A program made the translations under genes and the position numbers. Below the pieces are notes generated by a model, which worked only from the letters and a program-made list of their open reading frames with translations, made no database searches and was not told the DNA's origin. From assembly GCA_041640595.1 (NCBI GenBank), contig JBEPZY010000004.1:258373-322372 (forward strand): 64,000 nucleotides of DNA, written 5' to 3'. Shown here in pieces: positions 25,317-63,284 of the stretch. The number at the start of each line of letters is the position of its first letter. Position 1 is the first letter of the stretch. Origin of the DNA: Gemmatales bacterium (lineage in GTDB: Bacteria > Planctomycetota > Planctomycetia > Gemmatales > HRBIN36).

Positions 25317-25563
25317 GGACAAACTTCCCGATTATCTGCCACCGGCCAATGATCACTGGCCACCGAATTTCGCTCCGTTAGCGCGCAAACTTTGCCGATG
25401 TCCGATCACTGGTTCCAGATCACTGACGACCGAATTTCTCTCCGTCAGTAGGTGAACTCTCCCGATAGCCAGCCACCGGCCACCGATCACCGGCCACTGT
25501 TCACTGATCACCGGCCACTGTTCGCTGATCACCGGCCACTGTTCGCTGATCACCGGCCACTGA
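25317..25563. repeat. Degenerate 67-bp repeats followed by a heptamer-based 21-bp tandem repeat (CTGATCACCGGCCACTGTTCR)
   Basis: GATCACTG..ACCGAATTTC.CTCCGT.AG at 25351 and 25418; about four 21-bp units at 25484-25563. Confidence 0.85.
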
Positions 25564-25600
25564 AGGCTAGCTGGGCTGGTGTCCAGCCATCCGGCGCGTG

Positions 25601-26968
25601 TCAGATGCGGCGGAGGTGATAAATCACACGTTCGGCAAACTCGCTGCTCGATGCTCCTGCTTCCGGGCCGTAACCAGGATACTGCCGGGCGATGTCGTAA
25701 GTAACGTAAAGTTTTTGACCCGGTCCGCGTGCGGCAATCTCTTCGCTCTCGGCAAAGGTCATTTCCAATCCGCGATAGACCAGATTGGCTGCTTCGTGCC
25801 AGCCGAGGTGCTCTAACAGCAAGGCCCCGGAAAGGATGACGGCACTGGGATTGGCCATGTTTTTACCCGTGTATTTCGGCGCAGTACCGTGAGTGGCCTC
25901 GAACATAGCAGCCTGGTCGCCGATATTGGCTCCGGCTGCCAGTCCGATACCTCCCACCAGAGCCGCCACTGCGTCCGACAGGTAGTCGCCATTAAGATTC
26001 GGCGTGGCAATGACGCTATACTCATCCGGCCGGAGCTGGATTTGCTGAAACATGCTATCGGCAATGCGGTCGTTGACCAAAACCTTGCCCGCACGCTCAG
26101 CTCCGCGAGCGACTTCCTCTTCCGTAACCACAAAGGGGCGGAACTCGGTTACGGCCACCTCGTAACCCCAATCTTTGAAGGCTCCCTCGGTGAACTTCAT
26201 AATGTTGCCTTTGTGCACCAGCGTGACGCTCGGCAGTTTTTTGTCAATGGCGTAGCGGATGGCCATTCGCACCAGGCGTTTCGTACCTTCGGGGCTGATC
26301 GGTTTGATGCCGATACCAGCCGAGAGCGGAATGTTGTAGCCCAGCGAATTGATAAACTCGATCACCTTGCGGGCACGCTCCGTGCCACTCTTGAACTCGA
26401 TGCCACAATAAACATCCTCGGTGTTTTCGCGGAAAATGACCATGTTGACCTGGTGGGCCCGCTTATTGGGAGCCTCGATGCCTCGAAAATACCGCACCGG
26501 TCGCACACACGCATACAGGTCAAAGCGCATCCGCAGATAAACGTTGATACTGCGAAAACCTCCACCGATTGGCGTGGTGAGTGGCCCTTTGAGTCCGACG
26601 CGGTAATATTCGAAGGCCCGCAGCGTGTCATCCGGGAGGTAAAGTTTACGCTGATCCTCCTCGCTCAGATTGTTGACCTCTTCGTCGCGGACATGGGGAT
26701 AATAACGCTCCCGGGCAGAATCTCCCGCGTAAATGTCGAACCAGACGATGCGGCGCCGACCGGCATACGCATGTTCGACGGCCGCATCCAGAACCCGCAC
26801 CGCACAGGTGGTGATCCCCGGCACCGTGCCGACATCTTTCCCGATTCCATCACCACGGATCAGACACACAATCGGATCGTCCGGCACCTGCCAGCGTCCC
26901 TGAGCATCCACCTGAATGCGATTTCCCTGACTCGGCGGCGTCAATCGTTCGAAAGTTGGAACGCTCAT
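25601..26968 (-). CDS. icd: NADP-dependent isocitrate dehydrogenase
   Basis: GDGIG, KGPLTTPIGGGFRSIN, FRENTED, VHKGNIMKFTEGAF, NLNGDYLSD, FEATHGTAPKY; start MSVPTF. Confidence 0.96.
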   Translation of the reverse strand: MSVPTFERLTPPSQGNRIQVDAQGRWQVPDDPIVCLIRGDGIGKDVGTVPGITTCAVRVLDAAVEHAYAGRRRIVWFDIYAGDSARERYYPHVRDEEVNNLSEEDQRKLYLPDDTLRAFEYYRVGLKGPLTTPIGGGFRSINVYLRMRFDLYACVRPVRYFRGIEAPNKRAHQVNMVIFRENTEDVYCGIEFKSGTERARKVIEFINSLGYNIPLSAGIGIKPISPEGTKRLVRMAIRYAIDKKLPSVTLVHKGNIMKFTEGAFKDWGYEVAVTEFRPFVVTEEEVARGAERAGKVLVNDRIADSMFQQIQLRPDEYSVIATPNLNGDYLSDAVAALVGGIGLAAGANIGDQAAMFEATHGTAPKYTGKNMANPSAVILSGALLLEHLGWHEAANLVYRGLEMTFAESEEIAARGPGQKLYVTYDIARQYPGYGPEAGASSSEFAERVIYHLRRI

Positions 26969-26978
26969 GATCGTTTGC

Positions 26979-27592
26979 CCCTTTGTCGCGGTTCTGCTTA
27001 GCGACGACCGGACAGAGCCACATCCCATCTTGGTAGCCGGGTCTGCTCAGCCCTTTGCCTGAAGTTCCGCTAAGCGACGACCGGACAGTCTATTGCACTA
27101 ATTTCCCTCCCCCTGTCAAGATAGCACCCGACAAGCCTGCCAGCACGTTGAGGAAAAGTACCGCGATTTCACCCGTTTCCCCAGCCTCATCTTCCAGTTC
27201 GATCCGACCGGCTGCCAGCACGTTCAGGAAAAGTACCGCGATTTCACCTCCCCGTGTCAAGATAGCACCCGGCAACCGGCAGTGCCCGGTAATTACCCTT
27301 CCGGTGATTCTTCTCCATTGCGCCAGCGTGGTGTTCCCCCCGAGCGCCAGACCGCTTATCCATGCGAATAGATCAACGCCATCCGGTAGAACCGGGCGCC
27401 AGACGAACCACATTTCGCAAACCACCGAAATCCTCACCGATAGTGGGGCTTCGATTGCAAGGCGCCAGACGAACCACATTTCGCAAACCACGGGCGACAC
27501 AATTAGCACAGTTGTGTTCCGAAGCTGTGGATGGAAAGGCTCGCCTCCTCCGTTGCCTGGCGACACGATTAGCACGGTGGCGTTCCGAGCTG
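26979..27592. repeat. Cluster of five different repeat-spacer-repeat units upstream of icd
   Basis: Direct-repeat pairs at 26979/27051, 27101/27241, 27137/27212, 27395/27461 and 27493/27559. Confidence 0.85.
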
Positions 27593-27898
27593 ACGCATCA
27601 CTGGGAAAGTTTGCCTAGTGACCATTTTGGGGACGAAAGCGGTGCGGCCGTGTTTTGGGCGAAACCCATTCCTGATGCCGTGCTGCCTGCCGCGGGCGAG
27701 AAGCATGGCAATGTTGCGTTCAGTTCGGTTGCGGCTGGAGATTGTCGCATGGCCGGCCGAGGGGCAAGTTGATTTCAGAATTTTCTGAACATATTGACGA
27801 ACTGCGTTGGGGTTGGTAAACTTGTCTGAGGATGCTGGACGCGGGTCGTTTTTCAACAACGAGACAGAAGCAGCAACGCTTCGAAATCGGCCAAGTGG

Positions 27899-28084
27899 AT
27901 GCACGGGGCTTGGCTGTATGGAAAGTGCGGCGGAGGGGCTGATCTGCACTACGCGGCCAGCCCATAGAAGTAATGCATGGGGCTTGGCTGTATGGAAAGT
28001 GCGGCGGCGGGGCTGATCTGCACTACGCGGCCAGCCCATAGAAGTAATGCACGGGGCTTGGCTTATCGAAAGTGCGGCGGAGGT
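27899..28084. repeat. 74-bp tandem repeat (three ~38-nt repeats, two near-identical 36-nt spacers)
   Basis: ATGCAYGGGGCTTGGCT...GAAAGTGCGGCGG at 27899, 27973 and 28047. Confidence 0.9.
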
Positions 28085-28185
28085 CAGCTAGACCCGAACG
28101 GCGAAGCTGCCCAAGTGAATACGCTGGCACCTGGCTGGGCGAAGCGGGATGATCGCCGATTATCTTTGCCCAAAGGGGGATTGCC

Positions 28186-29736
28186 ATGTTCCGCGGGCTG
28201 CACAAGCTGCCACCATTGACTGCAGCGTGGTTTGCGTTGCTATGCGTCTTGTTGCTGGCTTTGCGCAGCCTGGCCGATTACTCCCTCTCGCAACCGCATC
28301 AATGGTTCGACTTCGGACGCTGGCGCTGGCTGCACTGGCCGGACTACTTTGCTCTGGCCGGCAGTTTCGTTAGCGACGACTGGCAATTCCGTTTGCTAAC
28401 CTGGGGCGTATGGCCTGGGTATTTGCTCGTGCAGGGCCTGGTGGTCGTCATGCGGTTGCAGACGCTGCGTCTGCCGAAACGGTGGGTGCTGTTCCTTCTG
28501 GTGCCAGTGGTGAACCTGGTTTTCCTGCTTGTGCTAGTGCTGGTGCCCATTTTCCTGGAGAAAAGACTGCTGTCGGCACGACACCGCCCATCGGCCTGGC
28601 GGTTGCCCGAAACGAGTGGCGAGGTGGTACCGATGGCATCACCCGGCGAATCTCCGCCAGCTGCGACGCAGACCGGTACAGAAACTCCGACCGACGAACT
28701 GACCGCATTAGCTGCCGCATCGTCAACCAACCGCTGGCAAGCCTGGCACAAAGAGTCGGCTCGGCACAACCTGGTCAATGCGCTGATACTGACGCTTCTA
28801 CTGTTGGTTCCGCTGGGCTGGCTGCTGGTTTATGTCTCGGCAGACTTGAGCCAACAATACGGGATCACCTTATTCGTTCTGGGCCCATTCGTAGCCGGCT
28901 GGTTGACCGCGATGATCCTGCACCGGGCAGCGGGGGCGTCGCTGGGAGACTGTCTGTTGGGCTTTCTGATGGTGATGATACTCGGCGGGGCGGTTTTGCT
29001 GGCAGTGGGGATGGAGGGGTTGGTGTGCTTGCTGATGGCGTCGCCGCTGGTGATTACCGTGGGCATGGCCGGTTGCGCTATCGGCTACCTGTTCGCCCGG
29101 AGCACGTGGCTGGCCAATTTCCGCACCTGGTCGGCAGGCTTGCTGGTGATGGTCTGGCCGATCGGTCTGGCCACGGAAATCATCTCCTCGCCGGGACCCA
29201 CATTGCACGCCGTCCGCACGGAAATCATCGTCCAGGCTCCGGTCGAAGTGGTCTGGAAGGCGACCATCTCGTTCGAGGAATTGCCGGAACCCAGGGAAGA
29301 AATGTTTCGGCTGGGAGTGGCGTATCCGGTAGCGGCGAAGATTGCCGGACAAGGTGCGGGAGCGGTGCGTCATTGCATTTTCAACACCGGCAGCTTTGTC
29401 GAGCCGATTCAGGTCTGGCAACCGCCGTTTTTGCTCCGCTTTGCCGTGACGGATCAACCGCCACCTATGCAGGAACTTTCCCCCTGGCCAATTGATCCGC
29501 CGCATTTGCACGGCTGCCTGGTGTGTCGGCAGGGAGAGTTTCGCCTGGAGCCGATGGGTCCCCATCAGACGCGCCTGATTGGCACGACCTGGTACGAGTT
29601 GCACATGTGGCCGGAATGGTACTGGCATGTGTGGAGCGACTATTGCATTCACCAGATTCACAACCGTGTGTTGCGGCACATCGCCAATCTCGCCGAAACG
29701 CACGCGGCAGAAGATGCCGCCAACCCCCGGCCCTGA
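28186..29736 (+). CDS. Polytopic membrane protein with C-terminal SRPBCC/START-like domain (DUF805-like N-terminus)
   Basis: Many TM helices, MEGLVCLLMASPL motif, VRTEIIVQAPVEVVW...GAVRHCIF...IHQIHNRVLRHI. Confidence 0.78.
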   Translation: MFRGLHKLPPLTAAWFALLCVLLLALRSLADYSLSQPHQWFDFGRWRWLHWPDYFALAGSFVSDDWQFRLLTWGVWPGYLLVQGLVVVMRLQTLRLPKRWVLFLLVPVVNLVFLLVLVLVPIFLEKRLLSARHRPSAWRLPETSGEVVPMASPGESPPAATQTGTETPTDELTALAAASSTNRWQAWHKESARHNLVNALILTLLLLVPLGWLLVYVSADLSQQYGITLFVLGPFVAGWLTAMILHRAAGASLGDCLLGFLMVMILGGAVLLAVGMEGLVCLLMASPLVITVGMAGCAIGYLFARSTWLANFRTWSAGLLVMVWPIGLATEIISSPGPTLHAVRTEIIVQAPVEVVWKATISFEELPEPREEMFRLGVAYPVAAKIAGQGAGAVRHCIFNTGSFVEPIQVWQPPFLLRFAVTDQPPPMQELSPWPIDPPHLHGCLVCRQGEFRLEPMGPHQTRLIGTTWYELHMWPEWYWHVWSDYCIHQIHNRVLRHIANLAETHAAEDAANPRP

Positions 29737-29817
29737 TTCCACTCGGGGCCGACGATGAAGATGATTGGTCCGCAAAGCAGCACCTTGCAGCGACCCGGCG
29801 ATCCGGAGGCGGCCATC

Positions 29818-29968
29818 GGTAAGCGAAACGGACTCGGCGAACGATTACCTTAGACGAGACAGTCTAACCAGGATGTACCGACTGGTAAGCGAAACGGGCT
29901 CGGCGAACGATGCCATGCAGGTTGGGCCTGACCACAAACTCGGTACGCTGGTAAGTGAAGCGGGGTGG
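29818..29968. repeat. CRISPR-like mini array: 28-nt repeat x3 (third degenerate), two distinct 38-nt spacers, period 66
   Basis: GGTAAGCGAAACGGRCTCGGCGAACGAT at 29818 and 29884; GGTAAGTGAAGCGGG at 29950. Confidence 0.75.
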
Positions 29969-30285
29969 ATTAAGGCTGGCGGCGCAGATTGAAGATGACA
30001 GAAGCTGCTACGGGGCCGAGAAATGCAAGCCTGATGAACTGTTACCGGTGTGCGCTCCTGGCTCAGCTTTTGCAGGAGCTGCTATCGGTCTGAAAAACGT
30101 AAGCGTACTGAAGTGGTGAGCGGAGATGGGTACTGCCAGCAATAACGCTATTGCTTACGACATCGGGAAAGCCCGTGCATTGCAAGCGGCAAGACCGAAA
30201 ATAGGAGCCGTCAGGGAACAAACGCCGGGGCCATCTTCCGGGAACATGCAAACGTCCTCGGAATACAAAATGCGGAGATAGTTCG

Positions 30286-31029: not shown

Positions 31030-31082
31030 GCGAGAGGTCGGCGGCACTGCGCGTGCCGATGGGATACGGAAGTCCGGCGGGG

Positions 31083-33230: not shown

Positions 33231-33324
33231 GCTCGCATCCCTTCCACTGTCTCAGCGTGCCAAGCAAAATATGGCACTAGTATATGCTACGAATCGTTTG
33301 TGGAAACCGACACGGTGCCACCTG

Positions 33325-34047: not shown

Positions 34048-34079
34048 CGCGGTTTCCCCGTCTTCATCATGCAATCACG

Positions 34080-34645: not shown

Positions 34646-34661
34646 GTGTGTGTGCGTCTAT

Positions 34662-36750: not shown

Positions 36751-36990
36751 TCGCCAGTCTTTTGTGCGAGCATTCGAAATTCGCAAGCCTCGGCATTGTC
36801 TTCGTCGCTAATTGCAAGGAAGTTGCCGGACTCTTGTACACGTGCGTTTGAAATTCGCAAGCCTCTGGGCTAGGCTTACGGGCACGACCACCACTCCATC
36901 GCCACTCTTGTGGACGTGCATCCTGGCGAAAAGCAGGAGTATGTCTGCAAGTTCACTGCGCTTCATCGCCACTCTTGTGCACATGCATTG
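36751..36990. repeat. Degenerate repeat-spacer units (periods 74 and 67) derived from a REP 3' flank
   Basis: GAAATTCGCAAGCCTC at 36776/36850; CATCGCCACTCTTGTG.AC.TGCAT at 36897/36964. Confidence 0.75.
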
Positions 36991-37272: not shown

Positions 37273-37570
37273 GGTGCGAACGGAATTGTTGCGATGGTTT
37301 TTTGCGAAGGAGAAAGGCTGAGAAATTAGCGGTCCGGAACGGCGCCGGTGCTATGGAAACTGTTGCGATGGTTTTTTGTGGAGACCTGGCATCAGGGCTC
37401 CGGTCGGGCGACGTGGGTAAAGCGATGGAAGCGGTTGCGATTGTGGCTTTTGCGTGGAAAGGTGCAATAATCAAAATGGAGATGTGCATGCTGAATGCGT
37501 GGATTTAGGATTTGTTCTGGGTCTTGGTCCCGCGGTGCAATAATCAAAATGGAGATGTGCGTGCTGAATG
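37273..37570. repeat. Two adjacent repeat-spacer units of the ~74-bp class
   Basis: GGTGC..GGAA..GTTGCGATGGTTTTTTG at 37273/37347 (degenerate third copy near 37420); 37-nt GGTGCAATAATCAAAATGGAGATGTGCRTGCTGAATG at 37461/37534. Confidence 0.85.
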
Positions 37571-41176: not shown

Positions 41177-41282
41177 TGCCTGCGACACTCCTCGAAACTC
41201 GGCCCCTCAATCACCCTGACGCAAAATCTGACCGTCGTCGGTGGCGACTCGGTGGCTGCGACACTACCGAAACTCGGCCCCT
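41177..41282. repeat. Direct repeat pair (period 75-76) whose second copy contains the tRNA-Cys 5' end
   Basis: CTGCGACACT..CGAAACTCGGCCCCT at 41180 and 41256. Confidence 0.8.
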
Positions 41283-41349
41283 TAGCCAAGCGGCCTAAGG
41301 CAGCGGATTGCAAATCCGCCATTCCCGGGTTCGAATCCCGGAGGGGCCT
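41276..41349 (+). tRNA. tRNA-Cys (GCA); CCA not encoded
   Basis: Acceptor GGCCCCT/AGGGGCC with U discriminator; anticodon arm GCGGA-TTGCAAA-TCCGC; T arm CCGGG-TTCGAAT-CCCGG. Confidence 0.96.
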
Positions 41350-41868: not shown

Positions 41869-41965
41869 GTCGGTGTTCCTTGATGTTTCTGACTCATCCA
41901 AGCTGGACACTGTTCCACGTTGCCGTCTTTGCCCGTCGGTGTTCCTTCATGTTTCTGACTCATCC
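41869..41965. repeat. 31-nt direct repeat pair with 35-nt spacer (period 66)
   Basis: GTCGGTGTTCCTTSATGTTTCTGACTCATCC at 41869 and 41935, one mismatch. Confidence 0.88.
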
Positions 41966-42777: not shown

Positions 42778-42895
42778 CCCCTGGGCGCGACCTCGTTTCC
42801 GGCCGGGTTCGTATCCATAACAATCACGTTACCGCCGACTGCGCAGCAACTGTGGGAAGCCATCTGTTTGTGGGCGTGTTAAACTGGCTATCACG

Positions 42896-43723
42896 TTACC
42901 GCCGATCGCGCAAGTTCAGCTGCTGCATCAGGCGATCCGTGGCGGTGTAGGCTTCCCGAACCCACTCGACCACCTGATCCGGTTGGGGCGGATATTCCAG
43001 TTCGACGCTGATGCTTCCGTCTATGTTGAGGTTTTTGATTTCTTCGAGGTAAGGCAGGAAGTTGACCACGCCACGACCCGGTGGTAAATCGCCATGCTTC
43101 TGGCCATCGCAATCGCTGATGTGGACGTGAATCGCCCAGCCGCGAAGTTGGCGTAGTTCCTGGGGTCGCACTCCGGCCAGTTGCAGATGGGAAATGTCAA
43201 TATTAGCCCGCACGGCCGGATGATTGACCTCCTGCAAAAAGGCCAGTATCCGCTCTACGCTGTTCAGCAACGAGAGCCGAAACGGTTCCAGTTCCAGAGC
43301 GATTTGCAAACCGAGCTGTTCGGCAGCATCACCGAGCCGGCGAACGTTTTCCACGGCCAGACGCCACTGTTCTGCCGGTGGGATCACTTCCTGCTGCCAG
43401 AGGTATTCGCCCAGCACCAGAAGCACATTGCTGGCCTGGTACTCGTAAGCCAGCTCCAGATACGCCTGGCAGCGCTGCAGGTGAAACCGCTGCACCGACC
43501 GGTTGAAATCGGTCAATCCCAGCGCCACACAGGCGATGCTGACAATGGGCAGACCGACACGGTCGCATTCCCGCTTGATGCGACAGCGTTCACGGATGTC
43601 CATCTCCAGCGGATCGGCAAAGATGTCAATGGTGTCAAAACCGATCTCTTTGGTAGTGCGAATTCCCCAGGCGGTATCCCGTCCCGATTGTACCCAAACC
43701 GAATTGATCAACCCCAGCCGCAT
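42896..43723 (-). CDS. Sugar phosphate isomerase/epimerase family protein
   Basis: ALELEP, NIDISH, HVHISD, HGDLPPGRG, SVELE; GGAG RBS before MRLGLIN. Confidence 0.88.
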   Translation of the reverse strand: MRLGLINSVWVQSGRDTAWGIRTTKEIGFDTIDIFADPLEMDIRERCRIKRECDRVGLPIVSIACVALGLTDFNRSVQRFHLQRCQAYLELAYEYQASNVLLVLGEYLWQQEVIPPAEQWRLAVENVRRLGDAAEQLGLQIALELEPFRLSLLNSVERILAFLQEVNHPAVRANIDISHLQLAGVRPQELRQLRGWAIHVHISDCDGQKHGDLPPGRGVVNFLPYLEEIKNLNIDGSISVELEYPPQPDQVVEWVREAYTATDRLMQQLNLRDRR

Positions 43724-44678: not shown

Positions 44679-45598
44679 GGTTCAAGCTCCTGCTCAGGGA
44701 CTGGCTTCGGTGGTGATTCGCAACCGGAATAGCTTTTCGCCATCCGCGTTCTTGCTGGCTACATGAGCACCGCTCCATCATTTTAGCATAGATTCGCTCG
44801 GCTTTTGCTCCCGCGTCTGGCTCGTTTGGAACCGACAAACCGAAGTTCGGCAGCCATTTTCGCTACGCTTTCCGCAACCAGCAGCCATGCCGGAGATCAT
44901 CCGGTCGGCTCTTCGGATACCGGCAGAATCTGCCGCTGGGTGAACGCTGACCGTCACTATCCGAAAACTGTTAACCGCCTCAGTTGCGGAACACCCGCTT
45001 CGCCATCTGCCACGTCGCTATTGAGCCACCAGCCGTCAAACGCAGGTGCGGTTCGCTTGCAGAGCTACCCGCCTTGCAATCTGCCACCGCCAATGTCTGG
45101 CTCGGCCTTACGGTGTCGCAAACACCCAAGGAAGCCGAAACGCCTGCATTGCCTGATGCTTCCGTGGGACGAAGATTTTTACGTGATCCGTCGGAAACGG
45201 CCAGGAAGCGGATACGCCTGCTGCTGGCCACACATTGTTTGATACCCTGTCGCCAGGAGTATCGGTAGAGTTGCTGGACAGACCAGGCCCGCAACCGAGT
45301 TTTTCCGTCACATTCTGGGCCCCACTGCCGGCGTGCCTGCAGCCTTGCCGAACTCACCAGGCCCGCAACCAGGCGCCCAGAAATGGTTATGCCGTGTCCT
45401 AATCCGATTGTGCAACGGGATGCCTGTCTGCAACCGGAGGGCGTAGGGATGCTTATCGAGCCCCTGGACTTTGCCGCCGGCACCATGCCAGTAACCGACC
45501 GGCGATGGTTGACAGGTTCTGCGTTACAAAACTGACCGGCGGTGAGTGATTACCGACAGGGACTCGCGCCGAAGCTGACCGCTATGCTTTCCAGATCC

Positions 45599-56382: not shown

Positions 56383-57381
56383 ATGGCTCAAACCAGCGCA
56401 ACCGGAACCCGGCTGCGAATCCTCTCCGGTGTCCAGCCGTCGGGCAAACTGCATCTCGGCAATTATTTCGGTGCCATCAAGCAGCACATCGAGCTGCAGG
56501 ACGAAGGCGAATGTTTTTACTTCATTGCCGATTTGCACGCTCTGACCACCATCCAGAATGCCGAGGAACTGCAGGCCAACGTCCGCGATGTCGCCCTCGA
56601 TTACCTCGCCCTCGGGCTGGACCCGAAGAAAACCGTCTTCTTCCGCCAATCGGACGTTCCGGAAGTAACGGAACTGGCCTGGATTTTTTCGACCGTCACG
56701 GGGATGGGCTTGCTGGAACGTGCCCATTCCTACAAGGACAAAGTGGCGCGAGGCTTGCCGGCCAGCGTCGGCTTGTTCTTCTACCCCGTGCTTATGGCAG
56801 CGGACATTCTGATTTACCGTTCTCACCTGGTGCCGGTCGGCCAGGATCAGGTCCAGCACCTGGAAATCACCCGCGACATTGCCGGCTATTTCAACCGTAC
56901 CTACGGCGAAATTTTTCCGCTGCCGGAATACCGACTCGGTCAGGCACCGGTGGTGCCCGGCCTGGACGGAAAAAAGATGAGCAAATCCTACGGCAACACC
57001 ATCGAAATTTTCGCCGAGGGCAAGGAACTGAAAAAGAAAGTGATGAGCATCGTTACCGACAGCACACCGCTGGAAGCCCCCAAAGACCCCGATAAGTGCA
57101 CCGTTTTCAAGTTGTATTCGCTCTTCGCCACACCGCAGGAACAGCAGGAACTGGCCGAAAAGTATCGTGCCGGCGGTTTCGGTTACGGTCAGGCCAAACA
57201 GATGCTTTACGAGAAGATCGAGCAGTACTTCGCAGCGGCACGCCAGCGACGCCGGGAACTGGCGAAAGAGCCGGGACTGGTCGAAGAGGTGCTGCGTCAG
57301 GGCGCAGCCCGTGCTCGTGCCGAAGCTCGCGCCACTATGGCCCTGGTCCGCCGTGCCGTCGGCCTCAACCCACCGCCGTAA
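56383..57381 (+). CDS. trpS: Tryptophanyl-tRNA synthetase
   Basis: SGVQPSGKLHLGNY, IADLHALT, YPVLMAADIL, VGQDQVQHLE, KMSKSYGN. Confidence 0.97.
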   Translation: MAQTSATGTRLRILSGVQPSGKLHLGNYFGAIKQHIELQDEGECFYFIADLHALTTIQNAEELQANVRDVALDYLALGLDPKKTVFFRQSDVPEVTELAWIFSTVTGMGLLERAHSYKDKVARGLPASVGLFFYPVLMAADILIYRSHLVPVGQDQVQHLEITRDIAGYFNRTYGEIFPLPEYRLGQAPVVPGLDGKKMSKSYGNTIEIFAEGKELKKKVMSIVTDSTPLEAPKDPDKCTVFKLYSLFATPQEQQELAEKYRAGGFGYGQAKQMLYEKIEQYFAAARQRRRELAKEPGLVEEVLRQGAARARAEARATMALVRRAVGLNPPP

Positions 57382-57525
57382 ACCATCCGCATGCTCCGGC
57401 AAAACAAAATCAACGGCTAGACCTGGACAATTCAACCCCCTCCGTAAGCCATCCGCACTCGCCGTCGCTTGCTTATTCCCCGACTGGGTTACTGAACCAT
57501 TCACCTCCTCTCTAAACCAACCGCA
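57365..57525. repeat. Three degenerate ~27-nt copies of the trpS 3' end spaced 66-68 bp apart
   Basis: TCAACCCACCGCCGTAAACCATCCGCA (57365), TCAACCCCCTCCGTAAGCCATCCGCA (57432), TCACCTCCTCTCTAAACCAACCGCA (57501). Confidence 0.75.
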
Positions 57526-57616
57526 CCCCCGGACTTAGTTGCTCGAACAACAGGTTAGCCGTCGGCCCGCACCGATCTCGATAAACCTTCCGTACCTCCA
57601 GGCCCAACCGCTTCAC

Positions 57617-58416
57617 CAGAGCCGCCAGCGTGAGCCAGCCGTGCAACAGCGAGCATCATCGCAAATCGCAAACGCATGTCCGTAACGATCCTCGTGCATG
57701 CAACCAGGAGCGGAAGGGCGTAAGCCAGCCGTGGCACACTGAGTCCGTTGCGAATGCGTTACACTGCCACTTGCGAACGTGCGTTTCTGCATCGAAAAAT
57801 CGTTTTCTCGCCGGCAAACGGTCGCACTGCACCAAGAGCGGGGGGCGTAAGCCCCCCGTGGCGCCTATAAACGCAATTGCAACGGCCATCCACGCACACG
57901 CATACACACCGTCGGCGATCTGCCGACGAACGACGCTCCTGTCCGCCGACACGCATTTGCCCGCCCACGGCGGGCTGACGCCCGCCGCTCTTGCGAAGGT
58001 GCGTTTGTGCAGTGCGAATGTCGTTTTTCGCAGCGAACGAACGTCGTGCAACCAGGAGCGGGGGGCGTAAGCCCCCCGTGGCATGCACTCCGCACGCGAG
58101 ATCCAAACGCCGATGTTCGTCGCACTGCACTTGCAGATGCGGTTCCGAAAACCACGGCGGGCTCACGCCCGCCGCTCTTGTGAACGTGCGTTTGTGCACC
58201 GCAAAAATCGTTTTTTTCGCCGTTAGACATGCGCATTGCAACACAGGGGCGGGGGCGTAAGCCCCCCGTGGGAAACAAACCCCGGCGCAAGTGCGTTACA
58301 TTACCACCGCGGGCTGACGCTCGGCGCTCTTGGTGGCGTTCATTTTCCGGTGAAAGTCGCAGTTCCACCGTAATCGCGTTTCGCTTACCACGGCGGGCTG
58401 ACGCTCGGCGCTCTTG
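57617..58416. repeat. REP-like palindrome cluster G (about 9 copies)
   Basis: REPs at about 57617, 57705, 57833, 57965, 58053, 58152, 58244, 58304 and 58388. Confidence 0.9.
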
Positions 58417-58699
58417 TAAATGTGCGTTTGTGCAGCGCGAATGTCGTTTTTTGCACGGAAAGCCGGTGCGCACTGCGGGTAGCGTTCTTCTCCTGCGAAC
58501 CCAGGCTGTGCACCGGGGGTGGTCTTTTTCTCCAGCGAACTGAGGTTGTGCACTAACAGCGACCGGAGAAGGATTGCCGGTGTTGGTAAGTGTAGCTAAA
58601 ATTCAAGCAAGGGAGCTGTCTCTGTAGTCACTTCGCTCGGGTTTGCTGGTCTCTCGGACTCAGGGTGAAACTGGAACTTATGGTAAGCGAGCCGTCTCG

Positions 58700-59358: not shown

Positions 59359-62300
59359 ATGCCCGAGCCACGTATGCCCGATGAGGCGCAGCTTGACCGC
59401 CAGCTGGCTGAGCTGGACGAAAACCCTGGCGCCCCTGTGGATTCCACAATCCGCCAGCTTCACACGGAGCTGGAAAGGCTCGCCAAAAGTCTGCAAGAAC
59501 CGGTGTCTCCTGACCCGCACGAGAAGGAATCGGGTTGTCGGCGCGCTGTTGAGCAGGCCCAGGCTCTGGCCTTCGAAATGACCACGCTGAACCCAGTGGC
59601 GGCTTGTCCACCTGCGGCGGACGTTCCGCTTCCGGAACGCCTCGAGCATTTTCGCATCCTCAGCATGCTGGGCCAGGGAGGCATGGGGGCGGTTTATCTG
59701 GCCGAGGACACACGGCTGGGCCGGCACGTGGCGCTCAAGACACTGCGTCGTGAACTCGCTGCCAAACCCCAGGCCAAGGAGCGATTTCTGCGTGAAGCCC
59801 GCCTGGCCGCCGCTGTGGAAAACGACCACATCGTTCCTATCTACCACGTTGGAGAAGATGCCGGGACTCCGTACTTGGCCATGCCCGTGCTGCAGGGACA
59901 AAGTCTGGAGGATTTGCTCCGGCAGCGCAGGGTACTGGCAGTACCCGAGGTGCTGTTCTTGGGTATTCAAATTGCTGAAGGGTTAGCTGCCGCTCACGAG
60001 CGTGGCCTGATCCACCGCGATATCAAGCCAAGCAATATCTGGGTCGAGCCGATCGGTGGCGGGCGTGTGAAAATTCTCGATTTCGGGCTGGCCCGTTCCA
60101 GCCAAACCGACACCTGCTTGACGCAAGCGGGCGCGATCGTGGGCACCCCCTCGTACATGGCCCCGGAGCAGGCTCGAGGGGACAAGCTCGATGCCCGCGC
60201 CGACCTGTACAGCCTGGGGGTCGTCCTCTACCGCCTGGCGACCGGCGAATTGCCCCTCAAGGGTGTCGATACCATGAGCATGCTCCTGGCCCTGGCCATC
60301 AACGAGCCGACGCCCGCTCACGTGGTCAACCCCGAGGTGCCGGCCGAATTGTCGGTTCTCATCATGCGGCTCTTGGCCAAGGAGCCGAGCGAACGCCCCG
60401 CCTCCGCACAAGACGTGATGCGGCAACTGCAAGCGCTGCAAAAAGCGCCCGCCGAAACCAACCATCAAACGCAACCGCTCCCTCACCGTCGCGGCCCGGA
60501 AAAAACAACTGCCGCTCGCGGCTCCGAAAAGGCAACTCCCGCTCGCGGCTCGGGTCCGCGCAGCCGCTGGCCTCTTGTCGCCGCCGGGTTGCTCTTCGCC
60601 TTCTTCGGCGGCGGACTGCTGCTCCAGCAAATCATTCTCCGCATCACCGACAAGGAGGGCAAGACCCGCGAGATTGAACTGAAGCCGGGCGACCGGATCG
60701 AGATCGTGGAGAAATCCGCTCCAAAACCTGATCCCACCACGACGCCGCGGAAGAAAGAACCGGAAATCAAGATCACCGCCGGCGACCCCGACCGCCGCGC
60801 CGCCGAGTATGTGCTGTCGATCGGGGGGCACGTGCAGATCAACGACAAGGACCAGTGGCTCATCGCCGCCCCTTTGCCGAAAGAGCCGTTCCGCCTCACG
60901 GCGGTGACCCTGAACGTCAATCCCAAGGTGACGGACGCCGGGTTGGCTCATTTCATGGACTGCAAGTACCTGACGCACCTCCACCTGGACTTCACCCAAG
61001 TGACGGACGTCGGCCTGGCCTACTTCAAGGGCTGCAAGAACCTGACGCATCTCTACCTGGGCAACACGCAAGTGACGGACGCCGGTCTGGCCTACTTCAA
61101 GGAATGCAAAAACGTGACGCATCTCAGCTTGCGCGAGACCAAGATCACAGACGCGGGGCTAGTCCCCTTCCAGGACTGCAAAGACCTGACATACCTAGAC
61201 CTGACCGGCACACGGGTGACGGACGCGGGGCTGGCCCACTTCAAGAAGTGCAAAGGCCTAACGCATCTCTACTTGGGCAACACGCGTGTGACGGACGCCG
61301 GTCTGGCCTACTTCAAGGAATGCAAGAACCTGGCGGGCCTCACACTGCATGGAACGTTGGTGACGGATGCGGGTCTGGCCCACTTTCAGGAGTGCAAAGG
61401 CCTGACGCATCTCGACTTGGGCAACACGCGTGTGACGGATGCCGGTCTGGCCTACTTCAAGGAATGCAAGAACCTGGCGGGCCTCACACTGCATGGAACG
61501 CTGGTGACGGATGCGGGTCTGGCCCACTTTCAGGAGTGCAAAGGCCTGACGTACCTCACCCTGGGGGGCACGCACGTGACGGATGTGGGTCTGGCGCACT
61601 TCCACGGCTGCAAGAACCTGACGTATCTCAGCCTGTACTCCACGCGGGTGACGGACGCCGGGCTGGCCCACTTCAAGGACTGCAAGGGCCTGACGCAACT
61701 CTACCTGGAGGGCACGCAGCTTACGGACGAGTCCCTTTCATGGATCGGTGGCCAACTGAGACTGAACCGCTTGGCCATCTCCGGCACCCGGATTTCGCTC
61801 TTAGGCTACGAACACCTCAAGGCCGCCTTGCCGAAGTGCAACATCACCTGGTCCGAGCCGAACCGCAGCGTCGCCGAGAGCGTGCTGGCCCTGGGCGGGA
61901 CGGTGGAGATCGGTTTCAAGGGCCAGCCGGCACGCCCGGTCAAGAGCGCGGAGGAACTGCCCAGGGAGCTCTTTCAGGTCCGTCGGGTGTCGCTGACCGG
62001 CGTCACCAAGCCGCTCGACAATCTGCCCGATTTGCTTTCACAACTGAGATTCAACGAGTTCGACCGGTTGGAAAAACTGGACCTGACCGGTATCAAAGGG
62101 CTGAATTACGCATTCCTGGCTCCCTTCGCCGGCCTGGAAGAACTGTCGCTGGCCAACGCGGGCCTGAACGACGCCTCGCTGGGCCAACTGCCGAAACTGC
62201 CCGCGCTCAAACGGCTGGTGCTCGACGGCAACGACATTCGCGGCACCGGTCTGACGGCCCTCAGCACCCAGCCGGCACTCGTCGATCTGTCGCTGGGCTG

Positions 62301-62523
62301 CCCGACCCTGACCGATCTCTATGCGAAAAACCTGGCCGAGCTGAAGCAGCTCAAGCGGCTGTCGCTGGCCGGCAGCAGCATCAGCGACGCTGCCATCCAG
62401 CACCTCGAAGGCCTGACCAATCTCGAAATGCTCGACCTGAGCCGGACGAAAATCACTCAGGCCGGCGTCGAACGATTGCGAAAAGCGCTACCCGCATGCA
62501 CGATCCAGTGGGCCGCAAACTGA
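59359..62523 (+). CDS. Receptor-like Ser/Thr kinase: kinase, TM helix, leucine-rich repeats
   Basis: AAGGAG RBS; GQGGMGAVY, VALK, HRDIKPSN, DFG, GTPSYMAPE; TM WPLVAAGLLFAFFGGGLLL; more than 15 24-aa LRRs. Confidence 0.94.
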   Translation: MPEPRMPDEAQLDRQLAELDENPGAPVDSTIRQLHTELERLAKSLQEPVSPDPHEKESGCRRAVEQAQALAFEMTTLNPVAACPPAADVPLPERLEHFRILSMLGQGGMGAVYLAEDTRLGRHVALKTLRRELAAKPQAKERFLREARLAAAVENDHIVPIYHVGEDAGTPYLAMPVLQGQSLEDLLRQRRVLAVPEVLFLGIQIAEGLAAAHERGLIHRDIKPSNIWVEPIGGGRVKILDFGLARSSQTDTCLTQAGAIVGTPSYMAPEQARGDKLDARADLYSLGVVLYRLATGELPLKGVDTMSMLLALAINEPTPAHVVNPEVPAELSVLIMRLLAKEPSERPASAQDVMRQLQALQKAPAETNHQTQPLPHRRGPEKTTAARGSEKATPARGSGPRSRWPLVAAGLLFAFFGGGLLLQQIILRITDKEGKTREIELKPGDRIEIVEKSAPKPDPTTTPRKKEPEIKITAGDPDRRAAEYVLSIGGHVQINDKDQWLIAAPLPKEPFRLTAVTLNVNPKVTDAGLAHFMDCKYLTHLHLDFTQVTDVGLAYFKGCKNLTHLYLGNTQVTDAGLAYFKECKNVTHLSLRETKITDAGLVPFQDCKDLTYLDLTGTRVTDAGLAHFKKCKGLTHLYLGNTRVTDAGLAYFKECKNLAGLTLHGTLVTDAGLAHFQECKGLTHLDLGNTRVTDAGLAYFKECKNLAGLTLHGTLVTDAGLAHFQECKGLTYLTLGGTHVTDVGLAHFHGCKNLTYLSLYSTRVTDAGLAHFKDCKGLTQLYLEGTQLTDESLSWIGGQLRLNRLAISGTRISLLGYEHLKAALPKCNITWSEPNRSVAESVLALGGTVEIGFKGQPARPVKSAEELPRELFQVRRVSLTGVTKPLDNLPDLLSQLRFNEFDRLEKLDLTGIKGLNYAFLAPFAGLEELSLANAGLNDASLGQLPKLPALKRLVLDGNDIRGTGLTALSTQPALVDLSLGCPTLTDLYAKNLAELKQLKRLSLAGSSISDAAIQHLEGLTNLEMLDLSRTKITQAGVERLRKALPACTIQWAAN
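60900..61740. repeat. 72-bp coding LRR tandem array with a near-identical 144-bp duplication
   Basis: GTGACGGAYGCSGG recurs every 72 bp; 61261-61404 nearly equals 61405-61548. Confidence 0.9.
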
Positions 62524-62592
62524 TGGTGTCTCCGTAGGGCAACTGGCCGCCCTCCCCAACGAGAAAATCGGCGTTTCGCTACCGCCTGCGCG

Positions 62593-63284
62593 TTCCCAGC
62601 AACCACGGCAGACTGACGCCGCAGTAGTGGCAGCCCCCGCCTGGCGGTTCCTCATGTCTTCTCGGCACCACGGCAGACTGACGCCCTCCACCGCTTCGAC
62701 TGTCGCTGTGCCCCGGACACTATTCGATTAATTCGCCGTCAACCAGTCAGATCACCGACCACGGCGGGCTGACGCCCGCCGCTCTCGGTCGCGTTCCCGG
62801 TAAAAGTCGCAGTTCCAGCGTAATCGCGTTTCGCAAACCACGGCGGGCTGACGCCCGCCGCTCTTGCGAACGTGCGTTTGTTCATCGCAAAAATCGTCAT
62901 TCTTCCAGCGGACGCTCGTTGTACCGGCGCCGAGGAGCGGGGGGCGTAAGCCCCCCGTGGAACACACTCCGCATACAAGCACGAAACGCCAAAATTCATT
63001 GGATTGCACTTGCAGATGCGGTTCCGAAAACCACGGCGGGCCGACGCCCGCCGCTCTTGAAAACGTGCGTTTGTGCAGCGCGAATGTCGCTTTTCACTCC
63101 GAACAAACGTCGTGCAACCAGGAGCGGCTGGCGTAAGCCAGCCGTGGTACGCTGACCCCGTTGCGAATGGGTTAGACCGCCACCTTCCACCTCCGGCGCG
63201 GCTTTGGCTTCGGCCATCCGTGTCGCGGTGACTCTGTTGCGAATCCGTTACACCGCCACCGCTGGCTGACGCCCGCCGCTCTTG
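62593..63284. repeat. REP-like palindrome cluster H (6 copies plus two half copies)
   Basis: Half REPs at 62603 and 62668; full REPs at 62759, 62837, 62932, 63031, 63119 and 63256. Confidence 0.9.

What the first reader, a model, noticed from the sequence alone, without database searches (positions are those of the whole stretch)
25317..62686. Window-wide family of repeat-spacer-repeat scars with CRISPR geometry but a different, locally derived repeat at every site
Seen: at least 15 intergenic direct-repeat pairs or triplets of 28-38 nt (some degenerate) flank ~35-40 nt inserts. Periods fall into two narrow classes. 65-68 bp: 25351/25418, 27395/27461, 27493/27559, 29818/29884/29950, 36897/36964, 41869/41935, 57376/57442/~57510, 62593/62659. 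72-76 bp: 26979/27051, 27137/27212, 27899/27973/28047, 36776/36850, 37273/37347, 37461/37534, 41180/41256, 45282/45356. The cleanest units measure 31+35, 31+35, 37+36 and 37+38. The repeats are unrelated to each other, and several copy functional local sequence (icd RBS, tRNA-Cys 5' end, trpS stop codon), so they behave like long target-site duplications. Divergence runs from zero to many mismatches, implying events of different ages. Established: Cas1-Cas2 inserts a fixed-length spacer by staggered attack one repeat length apart, which duplicates the target; off-target integration outside arrays is known; ~30-nt and ~37-nt repeats are common CRISPR length classes. Inference: a ruler-type integrase (two Cas1-Cas2 systems or an unknown analogue, encoded outside this window) has repeatedly inserted short DNA into non-coding sequence, leaving many single-spacer neo-arrays. 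They could be a genome-wide DNA record or a route to new arrays.
Basis: partly seen in the sequence, partly recalled or inferred. Interest (0 to 1): 0.92.

Follow-up and report, generated by a model that had tools for sequence, protein, structure and literature searches.

The report
Misplaced CRISPR spacers across the genome
The scattered repeat-insert-repeat units are scars left where this hot-spring bacterium's two CRISPR spacer-inserting enzymes pasted spacers, some of them from viruses, into ordinary DNA instead of the CRISPR arrays, hundreds of times, giving a rare natural record of an error known mainly from laboratory E. coli.

Summary
Outside the true arrays, direct repeats 25-250 nt apart pile up at 65-68 nt (148 of 1629 hits) and 72-76 nt (205), against about 2-5 per lag elsewhere. 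Duplicated lengths peak at 29-31 and 36-38 nt.

The genome has exactly two Cas1-Cas2 modules and two large arrays with these dimensions:
- type I-B: 30-nt repeat, 35-38-nt spacers;
- reverse-transcriptase-linked Cas1: 37-nt repeat, 35-39-nt spacers.

Scar repeats (252 clusters of 288) and inserts (277 of 288) are almost all unique.

- **Empty sites:** a relative's contig lacks one 66-nt unit inside the window. 21 scars have insert-free paralogues.
- **Insert origin:** seven 66-class inserts match two viral contigs that 50 array spacers also hit, and the array's protospacers carry a CCN PAM.
- **Site preference:** scar repeats weakly share the strand-symmetric positions of the canonical repeat (p=5e-11).

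The process is known from E. coli experiments (Nivala 2018, not read). It is new at this natural scale and for these two systems. The scan had already noted it in this genome and in others.

The parts
25351..25448 (.). 66-class scar, old: repeat 25351-25381 / 25418-25448 (27/31), insert about 36 nt
   Evidence: Similarity trails on to 38/49, so the geometry is ambiguous.
26979..27088 (.). 74-class scar: about 37-nt repeat holding the icd ribosome-binding site (core 26991-27015 / 27064-27088, 23/25; CCCTTTG at 26979 / 27051 with a 1-nt indel between)
27137..27248 (.). 74-class scar: repeat 37 nt (36/37), insert 27174-27211 (38 nt)
   Evidence: (D16). Present in L016.
27395..27491 (.). 66-class scar, youngest in the window: repeat 31 nt (31/31), insert 27426-27460 (35 nt)
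   Evidence: (D19). Present in L016.
27493..27588 (.). 66-class scar: repeat 30 nt (26/30), insert 27523-27558 (36 nt)
27899..28083 (.). 74-class unit amplified to 2.5 copies with identical inserts. The related strain L016 has 1.5 copies.
   Evidence: (D10).
29818..29977 (.). 66-class neo-array of two units: repeat 28 nt at 29818 / 29884 (27/28) and a decayed third copy at about 29950. Inserts are 29846-29883 and 29912-29949, and they differ.
   Evidence: L018 lacks the first 66-nt unit but has the second.
36755..36865 (.). 74-class scar, old: core repeat 36767-36791 / 36841-36865 (22/25). Strain L017 carries one more, diverged, 74-nt unit.
36894..36988 (.). 66-class scar: repeat 28 nt (25/28), period 67
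37273..37383 (.). 74-class scar: repeat 37 nt at 81% (27/32 core)
   Evidence: (D18).
37461..37570 (.). 74-class scar: repeat 37 nt (36/37), insert 37498-37533 (36 nt)
   Evidence: (D15).
41177..41289 (.). Probable 74-class scar: the repeat covers about 23 nt upstream of tRNA-Cys plus its first bases (12/13 + 15/15 with a 1-nt indel, period 75-76)
   Evidence: One contig of run X2 lies on 41191-41266 twice, meaning one extra 76-nt unit (table 8, record 14).
41869..41965 (.). 66-class scar: repeat 31 nt (30/31), insert 41900-41934 (35 nt)
42823..42912 (.). The second copy overlaps the 3' end of ORF 42899-43912 (minus strand).
45256..45370 (.). 74-class scar, old: 41 nt at 73% (core 22/26)
   Evidence: (D17).
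57370..57526 (.). 66-class scar with two decayed units (periods 66 and 68; 19/22 and 19/24). The first copy holds the trpS stop codon.
62602..62685 (.). Doubtful member: 19/19 at period 65, but the repeat is a variant of the dispersed hairpin element
   Evidence: (D3).

Best explanation
The units are scars of off-target ('non-canonical') spacer integration by the cell's own two Cas1-Cas2 integrases.

Each integrase makes two staggered attacks one repeat-length apart: 30 nt for the type I-B module and 37 nt for the reverse-transcriptase-linked module. It joins a prespacer of 35-39 nt between them, and gap repair then duplicates the target. The result is a local sequence copied on both sides of a spacer-sized insert, with a period of about 66 or about 74 nt.

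What is shown here:
- the two-class geometry and its match to the two resident arrays;
- the uniqueness of repeats and inserts;
- insertion polarity, from empty sites;
- a viral or own-genome origin for some 66-class inserts, and the same PAM beside several of their protospacers;
- a weak preference for sites that share the strand-symmetric positions of the canonical I-B repeat (G0 T1 ... A11 C12 C13 .. G16 G17 T18 ... A28 C29).

What is inferred:
- that Cas1-Cas2 (with Cas4 for the PAM) is the catalyst;
- that most scars are neutral and survive in non-coding DNA;
- that later unequal recombination between the two copies changes unit number;
- that a neo-repeat can be hit again, so a scar can grow into a small array.
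For: 1. **Geometry.** Orphan periods outside the arrays are 65:25, 66:62, 67:41, 68:20 and 72:40, 73:51, 74:55, 75:44, 76:15. The array periods are 30+35..38 nt (36/165/108/26 spacers) and 37+35..39 nt (12/81/99/38/11). Duplicated lengths peak at 29-31 and at 36-38 nt, then fall off sharply.

2. **Cognate enzymes.** There are two Cas1 and two Cas2 genes, each pair next to one array.

3. **Unique repeats and inserts.** Repeats form 252 clusters of 288. Only C3:328836 and three on C20 resemble a canonical repeat. Inserts form 277 clusters of 288.

4. **Empty sites.** L018, 80-90% identical, has the older unit at 29884 but lacks the 66-nt unit at 29818 that the window, L016 and L017 carry. 21 scars have a paralogue spanning the site without the insert, after 4 coding leucine-rich repeats were dropped. 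One example is C1:321599 against two 90%-identical copies.

5. **Insert origin.** 7 of 288 inserts, all 66-class, hit two IMG/VR contigs at E<=1e-4. 50 of 341 I-B array spacers hit the same contigs, and 0 of 246 spacers of the other array do. 3 more inserts hit contig C15, which 33 I-B array spacers hit. The insert of C2:174386 overlaps a true array spacer's protospacer, shifted by 2 nt.

6. **PAM.** 64 of 83 array protospacers carry NGG on the 3' side in the stored orientation, which is 5'-CCN. The control count, CCN on the 5' side, is 8 of 83. The insert of C1:321599 (34/35 to the virus) has CCG directly 5'. C2:174386 has CGG 3'. Three own-genome inserts have GG at +2,+3 if the repeat is taken as 30 nt. 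These come from a porin-like gene (100% of 33), the 23S rRNA gene (33/34) and a 1300-aa ORF (34/36).

7. **Site motif.** 122 repeat ends of the 66 class match the 12 strand-symmetric positions of the I-B repeat 4.04 times on average, against 3.01 in random non-coding 20-mers (p=5e-11). They do not match those of the other repeat (p=0.22). For the 74 class and its own 4 positions the figures are 1.36 against 0.94 (p=8e-5).

8. **Relatives.** G003 has both Cas1 types. It has 9 unique scars at 66-68 / 72-75 nt and none at other lags between 55 and 88 in 240 kb. G027 has no Cas1 and none in 200 kb.

9. **Not an assembly artefact.** Independent metagenome contigs L016 and L017 carry the same scars.
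Against: - No experiment ties the scars to Cas1-Cas2. The link rests on dimensions, PAM, shared targets and a weak motif.
- For the 74 class there is no protospacer, no PAM and no sign of RNA origin. The evidence is only geometry and a 4-position end preference, and that class also scores slightly on the I-B positions (p=1e-3).
- Having the system is not enough. G002, of the same genus, has a homologous 37-nt array and Cas1. It shows at most one candidate (period 77, 32/37) in 650 kb, where about 42 would be expected at this genome's mean density.
- The scars are very unevenly spread in this genome. There are 7-23 per 100 kb on C2-C5, C9, C10 and C12, but almost none on C1:350-900 kb, C6, C7 and C13. 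This is unexplained and tracks a dispersed hairpin repeat.
- Over the whole repeat length the scars are no more like the canonical repeats than random DNA.
- A PAM is visible next to only about 3-4 of the 7 virus-matching inserts. The 'GG' reading for own-genome inserts depends on setting the repeat to 30 nt.
- Measured duplications vary (28, 31, 32, 34 nt), and boundaries blur in old scars.
Confidence: 0.9

Rival explanations
1. Ordinary tandem duplication by replication slippage or unequal crossing-over, followed by decay of part of the unit, with no integrase involved.
For: Some loci are whole-unit tandem repeats. 27899-28083 is 2.5 x 74 nt at 94-97%. L017 has an extra diverged unit at 36776. 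25351/25418 keeps weak similarity past the repeat (38/49). Unit number varies between strains.
Against: Slippage has no ruler, so it does not explain two sharp period classes equal to the two arrays. It also does not explain duplicated lengths that stop at 30-31 and 37-38 nt. In clean units the insert is unrelated to the flanks. Several inserts come from viruses or distant genes. The empty site in L018 lacks insert plus one repeat copy exactly.
Confidence: 0.03
2. Another ruler-type integrase or transposase (a casposase-like or unknown enzyme), not the CRISPR Cas1-Cas2 modules, inserts short DNA with long target duplications.
For: Catalysis was not tested. G002 has a homologous array and Cas1 but almost no scars, so some other factor differs between lineages. 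The scars co-vary with an unrelated dispersed repeat.
Against: Only two Cas1 homologues were found in a 95%-complete genome, both in CRISPR loci. Two independent length classes each match one array in both repeat and spacer length. The 66-class inserts share viruses with the I-B array spacers, and several of their protospacers carry the same PAM. Their repeats also share that array's symmetric repeat positions.
Confidence: 0.04
3. The units are decayed remnants or transferred fragments of true CRISPR arrays, or copies of a small mobile element.
For: Four units do carry canonical-like repeats (C3:328836 at 92%; C20 at 85%). Some whole units exist as paralogous copies.
Against: 252 of 288 repeats are unrelated to each other and to the canonical repeats. 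The repeats are continuous with local functional sequence: the icd ribosome-binding site, the tRNA-Cys 5' end and the trpS stop. Inserts are unique, with no shared termini. Empty sites show a single native copy.
Confidence: 0.02
4. Assembly or binning artefact.
For: The record is a 42-contig assembly with an uneven repeat landscape. Short-read contigs of other runs break at the repeat copies.
Against: Two independent metagenome contigs (L016 99.5%, L017 97-98%) carry the same units base for base over 17998-37241. 20 runs from 14 studies hold half or more of the sampled words of 26000-35999. The same phenomenon is seen in G003.
Confidence: 0.01

Closest known systems
Non-canonical (off-target) spacer integration giving 'neo-CRISPR' loci in E. 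coli type I-E (Nivala, Shipman and Church, Nat Microbiol 2018). The paper is not held. It is known here from passages that cite it (10.1101/148544; PMC7054753) and from recall.
   Same: A spacer-sized insert at a non-CRISPR site is flanked by a duplication one repeat-length long. The new unit can serve as a seed for further acquisition. The citing passage says circumstantial evidence was found in two other species.
   Different: The events here are natural and fixed, with about 290 clear and up to about 500-600 detectable loci in one wild genome. They did not arise from over-expressed Cas1-Cas2 in culture. Two systems act side by side, type I-B and an RT-linked module, with 30- and 37-nt duplications instead of 28. 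Many scars are old: the two repeat copies are identical in only 13 of 159. Some scars are shared between lineages.
Canonical type I-B adaptation (Cas1-Cas2-Cas4, PAM-selected prespacers, leader-proximal integration, repeat-internal motifs as ruler anchors). The ruler-anchor work in Haloarcula is recalled, not read.
   Same: 30-nt duplication, 35-38-nt inserts, CCN PAM, the same target viruses, G...C ends and a central ACC..GGT preference.
   Different: There is no leader, no canonical repeat and no neighbouring cas genes. Sites share only a few positions with the repeat.
Spacer acquisition by reverse-transcriptase-associated Cas1 in type III systems (Silas et al., Science 2016). Seen only in a reference list; the content is recalled.
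   Same: The 37-nt array lies next to cas2, a group-II-like RT and cas1. The 74-class scars have its dimensions.
   Different: RT and Cas1 are separate genes here. Nothing shows that the 74-class inserts come from RNA, and no protospacer was found for that array or its scars.
Isolated or orphan CRISPR arrays (Shmakov et al., CRISPR J 2020). The paper is not held. A citing passage lists off-target spacer acquisition as one of three proposed origins (PMC13142298).
   Same: Repeat-spacer units lie away from cas genes and are ascribed to off-target integration.
   Different: By my recollection those arrays are multi-unit and have repeats resembling a known CRISPR repeat. Here almost every unit has its own local repeat, and most have a single insert.
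Ectopic spacer acquisition inside arrays (Streptococcus thermophilus, PMC7999890; search listing and abstract start only)
   Same: Integration happens at the wrong address.
   Different: That is still within a canonical array, at a canonical repeat.

Membership tests
Off-target Cas1-Cas2 spacer integration (neo-CRISPR units) | Target duplication equal to the length of the resident CRISPR repeat | tested here: met
   Duplicated lengths peak at 29-31 nt (period 65-68) and 36-38 nt (period 72-76). The canonical repeats are 30 and 37 nt.
Off-target Cas1-Cas2 spacer integration (neo-CRISPR units) | Insert length equal to the resident spacer length | tested here: met
   Clean window units have inserts of 35, 35, 36, 36, 38 and 38 nt. 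Array spacers are 35-38 and 35-39 nt. The period distributions coincide.
Off-target Cas1-Cas2 spacer integration (neo-CRISPR units) | Cognate Cas1 and Cas2 encoded in the same genome | tested here: met
   Two Cas1 and two Cas2 genes, each pair beside one array.
Off-target Cas1-Cas2 spacer integration (neo-CRISPR units) | The flanking repeat is native local sequence, present once at the empty site | tested here: met
   L018 lacks the 66-nt unit at 29818. 21 scars have insert-free paralogues. Repeats include the icd ribosome-binding site, the tRNA-Cys 5' end and the trpS stop.
Off-target Cas1-Cas2 spacer integration (neo-CRISPR units) | Inserts are prespacers of the same kind as array spacers (same sources, same PAM) | tested here: met
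   This holds for the 66 class only. 7 inserts hit the two viral contigs that 50 array spacers hit, and 3 hit C15. CCN is adjacent for C1:321599 and C2:174386 and for three own-genome inserts. For the 74 class it is inconclusive, because no protospacers are known.
Off-target Cas1-Cas2 spacer integration (neo-CRISPR units) | Dependence on Cas1-Cas2 catalysis | not testable with these tools
   Needs integration assays or genetics.
Canonical CRISPR array | Several copies of one conserved repeat shared with the cas-linked array, preceded by a leader | tested here: not met
   252 repeat clusters of 288. Whole-length similarity to the canonical repeats equals the null. 257 of 271 chains have a single insert.
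Plain tandem duplication (VNTR) | The whole unit, insert included, is repeated, and no preferred length is expected | tested here: not met
   This is met only at amplified loci such as 27899-28083. The bulk have unrelated inserts and two fixed periods.
Miniature mobile element with target-site duplication | A conserved insert sequence with defined termini at many sites | tested here: not met
   Inserts form 277 clusters of 288.

The most novel reading that the evidence does not exclude
In this lineage, and in its relative G003, the two CRISPR integrases need only a short palindromic anchor in the target (roughly GT-N9-ACC-N2-GGT-N9-AC for the I-B enzyme) and no leader. The non-coding genome has therefore become a second, distributed spacer archive. 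It has been written over a long time, it holds viral and self fragments, and new arrays are born and grow from it: 14 multi-unit scars, one of them with its newest unit absent in a relative. The sharp contrast with G002, and with scar-free stretches of the same assembly, would then point to a lineage-specific loss of an integration-fidelity factor. Alternatively it could point to a chromatin or DNA-structure feature shared with the dispersed hairpin repeat.
Probability: 0.3. Interest if true: 0.9.

Novelty: new variant of a known kind. Interest (0 to 1): 0.8.

Why it matters
Off-target spacer integration has been shown mainly in E. coli that over-produces Cas1-Cas2. Whether it happens in nature, how often, and whether it seeds new arrays are open questions. 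The passage read says so explicitly.

This genome offers hundreds of fixed natural events from two different adaptation modules. They come with empty sites, identifiable viral sources, a PAM and a site preference. That makes several questions testable on real data:
- what a Cas1-Cas2 integrase minimally recognises;
- how faithful leader-directed integration is in the wild;
- how CRISPR arrays originate;
- how much this process adds to intergenic DNA.

It also warns annotators that small 'CRISPR arrays' called in such genomes may be scars. Three full-text searches found no paper describing a natural genome-wide set of such scars. The two key papers could not be read, so overlap with their natural-genome analyses cannot be excluded.

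Tried and rejected
1. **Read laying.** I laid contigs of four runs (X2, X3, X4, X10) on 25450-45449. The contigs mostly break at the repeat copies, and the joint table was cut (102 rows not shown). No clear empty-site joint could be read, so this was inconclusive. One X10 contig starts at 41935 with 55 unaligned letters that I could not inspect.

2. **Same-genus species representatives.** G001-G003 are only 72-78% identical in genes and are not syntenic, so orthologous intergenic sites could not be compared.

3. **Whole-length similarity of scar repeats to the canonical repeats.** With best register and both strands, this was no different from random once the 4 canonical-like repeats are set aside. 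Only the fixed-register test on strand-symmetric positions gave a signal.

4. **Proximity to the dispersed hairpin repeat.** 57 of 233 non-coding scars lie within 500 nt of a copy, against 32.3 +/- 4.9 for random non-coding positions. The median distance is 5.7 kb, so this is a loose association, not a targeting rule.

5. **Contig C15 as a recognisable phage.** It has no PHROG hits (0 of 9 ORFs). It has only a sub-threshold protein-primed polymerase match and a metallopeptidase domain. No relatives were found in viral contigs.

6. **Rfam on the window.** Only tRNA-Cys was found, and no family covers the scars or the hairpin repeat.

7. **A 24-nt match of the C9:139927 insert to the cas1b gene (23/24).** I judged it too short to interpret.

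8. **Papers.** Nivala 2018 and Shmakov 2020 are not held. No supplements were consulted.

Full report

Tandem Repeats Finder and the repeat finder already show part of the pattern.

The cleanest pairs are:

| Pair | Repeat identity | Insert (nt) |
|---|---|---|
| 27395/27461 | 31/31 | 35 |
| 27493/27559 | 26/30 | 36 |
| 41869/41935 | 30/31 | 35 |
| 29818/29884 | 27/28 | 38 |
| 27137/27212 | 36/37 | 38 |
| 37461/37534 | 36/37 | 36 |

In these, the sequence after the second copy does not resemble the insert. They are therefore repeat-insert-repeat units, not 2-copy tandem repeats.

Older units are degenerate: 25351, 26979, 36767, 37273, 41177, 45271 and 57370.

- 27899-28083 is one 74-nt unit amplified to 2.5 copies with identical inserts.
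- 25351/25418 keeps weak similarity beyond the repeat.

- the icd ribosome-binding site (icd = 25601-26968, minus strand);
- the 5' end of tRNA-Cys (41276);
- the trpS stop codon (trpS = 56383-57381, plus strand).

**2. More than chance, and genome-wide**

The window is G000:C4:258373-322372 in a 4.45-Mb, 42-contig assembly. I collected all local direct repeats with a 12-mer seed, ungapped extension, length of at least 18 and distance 25-250.

Two true CRISPR arrays dominate the raw spectrum. After removing them, 1629 hits remain:

| Lag range (nt) | Hits |
|---|---|
| 65-68 (4 lags) | 148 |
| 72-76 (5 lags) | 205 |
| 88-93 (6 lags) | 211 |
| 55-64 (10 lags) | 28 |
| 77-87 (11 lags) | 50 |

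Part of the 72-nt lag is coding leucine-rich repeats, such as window 60923-61714.

Of the hits in the two classes, 135 of 148 and 153 of 205 have the repeat-insert-repeat form. Of those, 112 of 135 and 121 of 153 lie mostly outside ORFs of 150 aa or more, by a crude ORF map.

The more sensitive fixed-lag scan gives 279 and 334 merged loci, against 19, 27 and 47 in three control lag sets.

**3. The ruler matches two resident CRISPR systems**

| | Array B | Array A |
|---|---|---|
| Location | C8:2-21081 plus C10:65228-end | C1:359749-377936 |
| Repeats | 344 of 30 nt | 247 of 37 nt |
| Spacers | 35-40 nt: 36, 165, 108 and 26 at 35-38 | 33-40 nt: 12, 81, 99, 38 and 11 at 35-39 |

The genome has two Cas1 and two Cas2 genes.
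- Next to array B lie cas2, a type I-B cas1 (TIGR03641, 1e-127), cas4, cas3, cas5 and cas7, followed by cmr1-6.
- Next to array A lie cas2, a 550-aa group-II-intron-like reverse transcriptase and cas1.

The orphan periods (65:25, 66:62, 67:41, 68:20; 72:40, 73:51, 74:55, 75:44, 76:15) have the shape of the array periods. The duplicated length peaks at 29-31 nt in the first class and at 36-38 nt in the second, with a sharp drop above.

**4. Repeats and inserts are local and unique**
- The 288 repeats fall into 252 clusters. Only C3:328836 (92%) and three on C20 (85%) resemble a canonical repeat.
- Inserts fall into 277 clusters of 288.
- 14 chains have two or more consecutive units, mostly with unrelated inserts. 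Some scars have therefore been hit again.
- The two repeat copies are identical in only 13 of 159 well-sized units. They are below 95% in 113, so most events are old.

**5. Direct evidence of insertion**

A protein-anchored search of metagenome contigs returned three informative relatives of the window:

| Locus | DNA identity | Window range covered |
|---|---|---|
| L016 | 99.5% | 17998-34460 |
| L017 | 97-98% | 28352-37241 |
| L018 | 80-90% | 28970-34940 |

L016 and L017 carry the window's scars. This also rules out an assembly artefact.

L018 has the repeat, the second insert and the decayed third repeat of the 29818 locus. It lacks exactly the 66-nt first unit, a 38-nt insert plus one 28-nt repeat copy. 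That unit was therefore inserted, with target duplication, after the lineages split, and it landed on the repeat of an older unit.

Unit number also changes by recombination. L016 has 1.5 copies where the window has 2.5 (27899). L017 has one extra diverged unit at 36776. One contig of run X2 lies on 41191-41266 twice.

Inside the genome, 21 scars have a paralogous copy that spans the site without the insert. This count excludes 4 coding leucine-rich repeats. At C1:321599, two copies that are 90% identical show a single repeat where the scar has repeat + 35 nt + repeat.

**6. Where the inserts come from**

37 of 288 inserts have a second match in the genome, and many of those are paralogous copies of whole units. 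The informative ones are:
- The insert of C2:174386 overlaps a true array-B spacer (30/31).
- Three inserts match own-genome DNA: a porin-like gene (100% of 33 nt), the 23S rRNA gene (33/34, confirmed by Rfam) and a 1300-aa ORF (34/36).

Contig C15 is 9.6 kb with 49.8% G+C. 33 spacers of array B hit it, mostly the leader-proximal ones, and 3 orphan inserts hit it too.

A 31-nt pattern common to the array spacer and the orphan insert found two IMG/VR contigs. I fetched them whole.
- 50 of 341 array-B spacers hit them, and 0 of 246 array-A spacers do.
- 7 of 288 orphan inserts hit them, all of the 66 class.
- Over these contigs and C15 together, 64 of 83 array protospacers have NGG on the 3' side in the stored orientation, that is, a 5'-CCN PAM. 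The control orientation gives 8 of 83.

PAM next to the orphan inserts:
- The viral match of C1:321599 (34/35) has CCG directly 5'.
- The protospacer of C2:174386 is the array spacer's site shifted by 2 nt, read on the other strand, with CGG 3'.
- The three own-genome protospacers have GG at +2,+3 if the repeat is set to 30 nt.
- For the other virus-matching inserts the PAM is unclear.

The G+C content of inserts equals that of array spacers (0.547 against 0.551; 0.576 against 0.570). In the 66 class it is below that of the flanks (0.579, p=0.0014).

None of the window's own inserts found a source.

**7. What the integrase reads in the target**

Over their whole length the scar repeats are no more like the canonical repeats than random DNA.

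Repeat B is partly palindromic. Read from either end it has G0 T1 A5 A6 T7 C8 A11 C12 C13 G16 G17 T18. Profiles of scar repeat ends that use both strands show:
- G at position 0 (55%) and T at position 1 (36%);
- A at 11 (41%) and C at 12 and 13 (about 40%);
- G at 17 (43%);
- a G-rich native flank.

In a fixed-register test that excluded the canonical-like units:
- 122 ends match these 12 positions 4.04 times on average, against 3.01 for random non-coding 20-mers (p=5e-11).
- They do not match the symmetric positions of repeat A (p=0.22).
- The 74 class matches its own four positions (T1 C4 A5 A6) 1.36 times, against 0.94 (p=8e-5).

The positions were defined from the canonical repeats alone, but I had seen the profiles first.

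**8. Controls in relatives**

All samples were scanned with the same script.

| Genome | Relation and Cas1 content | DNA sampled | Result |
|---|---|---|---|
| G003 | same genus; both Cas1 types; array-B-like repeat | 240 kb on 20 contigs | 12 of 24 local repeats at 66-68 or 72-75 nt; 3 are its true array, 9 are unique scars; none at other lags between 55 and 88 |
| G002 | same genus; one Cas1 and a homologous 37-nt array | 650 kb | its array fragments and at most one candidate (period 77, 32/37) |
| G004 | same family; one Cas1 | 200 kb | one candidate (period 73, 32/37) |
| G027 | same order; no Cas1 found | 200 kb | none |

Some of the G003 contigs were chosen because they matched repeats of the window. 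For G002, about 42 scars would be expected at this genome's mean density. All of these are samples, not whole genomes.

**9. Open problems**

The scars are unevenly spread. There are 7-23 per 100 kb on C2-C5, C9, C10 and C12, and almost none on C1:350-900 kb, C6, C7 and C13.

A dispersed 29-nt hairpin element has the same skew. It has about 1001 copies at up to 6 substitutions, often in tandem at 88-89 or 92-93 nt. It was not found in the G002, G004 and G027 samples but is present in G003. The link to scars is loose.

Why the same genus holds scar-rich and scar-free genomes, and why one assembly holds both kinds of region, is not explained.

For the 74 class the case rests on geometry and a weak end preference only.

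**10. Comparison with what is known**

The process is the off-target integration described for E. coli by Nivala, Shipman and Church (2018). I could not read that paper. Passages that cite it say three things:
- it spawns 'neo-CRISPR' arrays;
- it was seen with over-produced Cas1-Cas2;
- it is unclear how common it is in nature, with circumstantial evidence in two other species.

A citing passage lists off-target acquisition among three origins proposed for isolated arrays, referring to Shmakov et al. 2020, which is also not held.

Three full-text searches found no report of a natural genome-wide set of such scars. In the listed titles and abstracts, 'ectopic' acquisition refers to events inside arrays.

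Other agents of this scan had already reported the same reading for other windows of this genome, and for at least nine genomes in all. I reached it independently before looking. My additions are the empty site in the window, the viral sources, the PAM, the site motif and the controls in relatives.

**11. Verdict**

- Observation: confirmed.
- Classification: a natural, large-scale, two-system variant of a known process.
- Confidence in the mechanism: 0.9. It is lower for the 74 class taken alone.

Noticed in passing
window 25017-25249, 34074-34659, 37036-37160, 41406-41811, 53555-53684, 58298-58430, 62753-62880: A dispersed 29-nt hairpin element (core CCACGGCGGGCTGACGCCCGCCGCTCTTG, on both strands) has about 1001 copies in the genome at up to 6 substitutions. 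It often sits in tandem at 88-89 or 92-93 nt as part of a unit of about 92 nt. Copy number differs between strains (L016 is 91 nt shorter near 25110; L017 is 536 nt shorter in 34111-34617). It has no Rfam family. It was not found in the G002, G004 and G027 samples but is present in G003.
   Followed up: partly
G000 contigs C1:350000-900000, C6, C7, C13 versus C2-C5, C9, C10, C12: Both the scars and the hairpin element are almost absent from about 1 Mb of the assembly, which also has lower G+C in places. They are dense elsewhere. This could reflect recent acquisition, a separate replicon or a binning problem, and it is unexplained.
   Followed up: partly
G000 contig C15 (L121, 9585 nt): A low-G+C (49.8%) contig binned with the genome is hit by 33 spacers of the I-B array, mostly the leader-proximal ones, with a CCN PAM. 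It looks like a current invader. It has no PHROG hits, a sub-threshold protein-primed DNA polymerase match (PF03175, E=7.8e-4) and an M10 metallopeptidase domain.
   Followed up: partly
G000 C3:328780-329010: A single-spacer unit has repeats 92% like the I-B repeat, and its spacer matches C15 (31/34). The unit is itself bracketed by a roughly 32-nt direct duplication about 133 nt apart, as if a repeat-spacer-repeat fragment had been inserted as one piece.
   Followed up: no
G000 C10:38659-38830: A chain in which a 75-nt unit (repeat 34) is followed directly by a 67-nt unit (repeat 28). Both integrases may have used overlapping targets.
   Followed up: no
G000 C8:21882 and C8:24708: Two 66-class scars lie within the type I-B cas locus and leader region itself. 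The insert of C8:24708 matches the viral contigs 33/34.
   Followed up: no
window 25481-25562: A 21-nt tandem repeat (3.9 copies) varies by one unit in run X2 and in L016.
   Followed up: no
window 59359-62520: A 1054-aa Ser/Thr kinase with 11 leucine-rich repeats of 72 nt. This coding repeat inflates the 72-, 144- and 216-nt lags and must be removed before counting scars.
   Followed up: yes
window 51417-52418 (minus strand): An ORF matching the Trx7/PDZ (seleno)protein family (NF041199, 3e-112) from profile position 41 on. The true start, possibly with an in-frame TGA, may lie upstream.
   Followed up: no
G000 C9:139927: The first 24 nt of a 74-class insert match the cas1b gene (23/24) and then diverge. 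This is too short to interpret.
   Followed up: no
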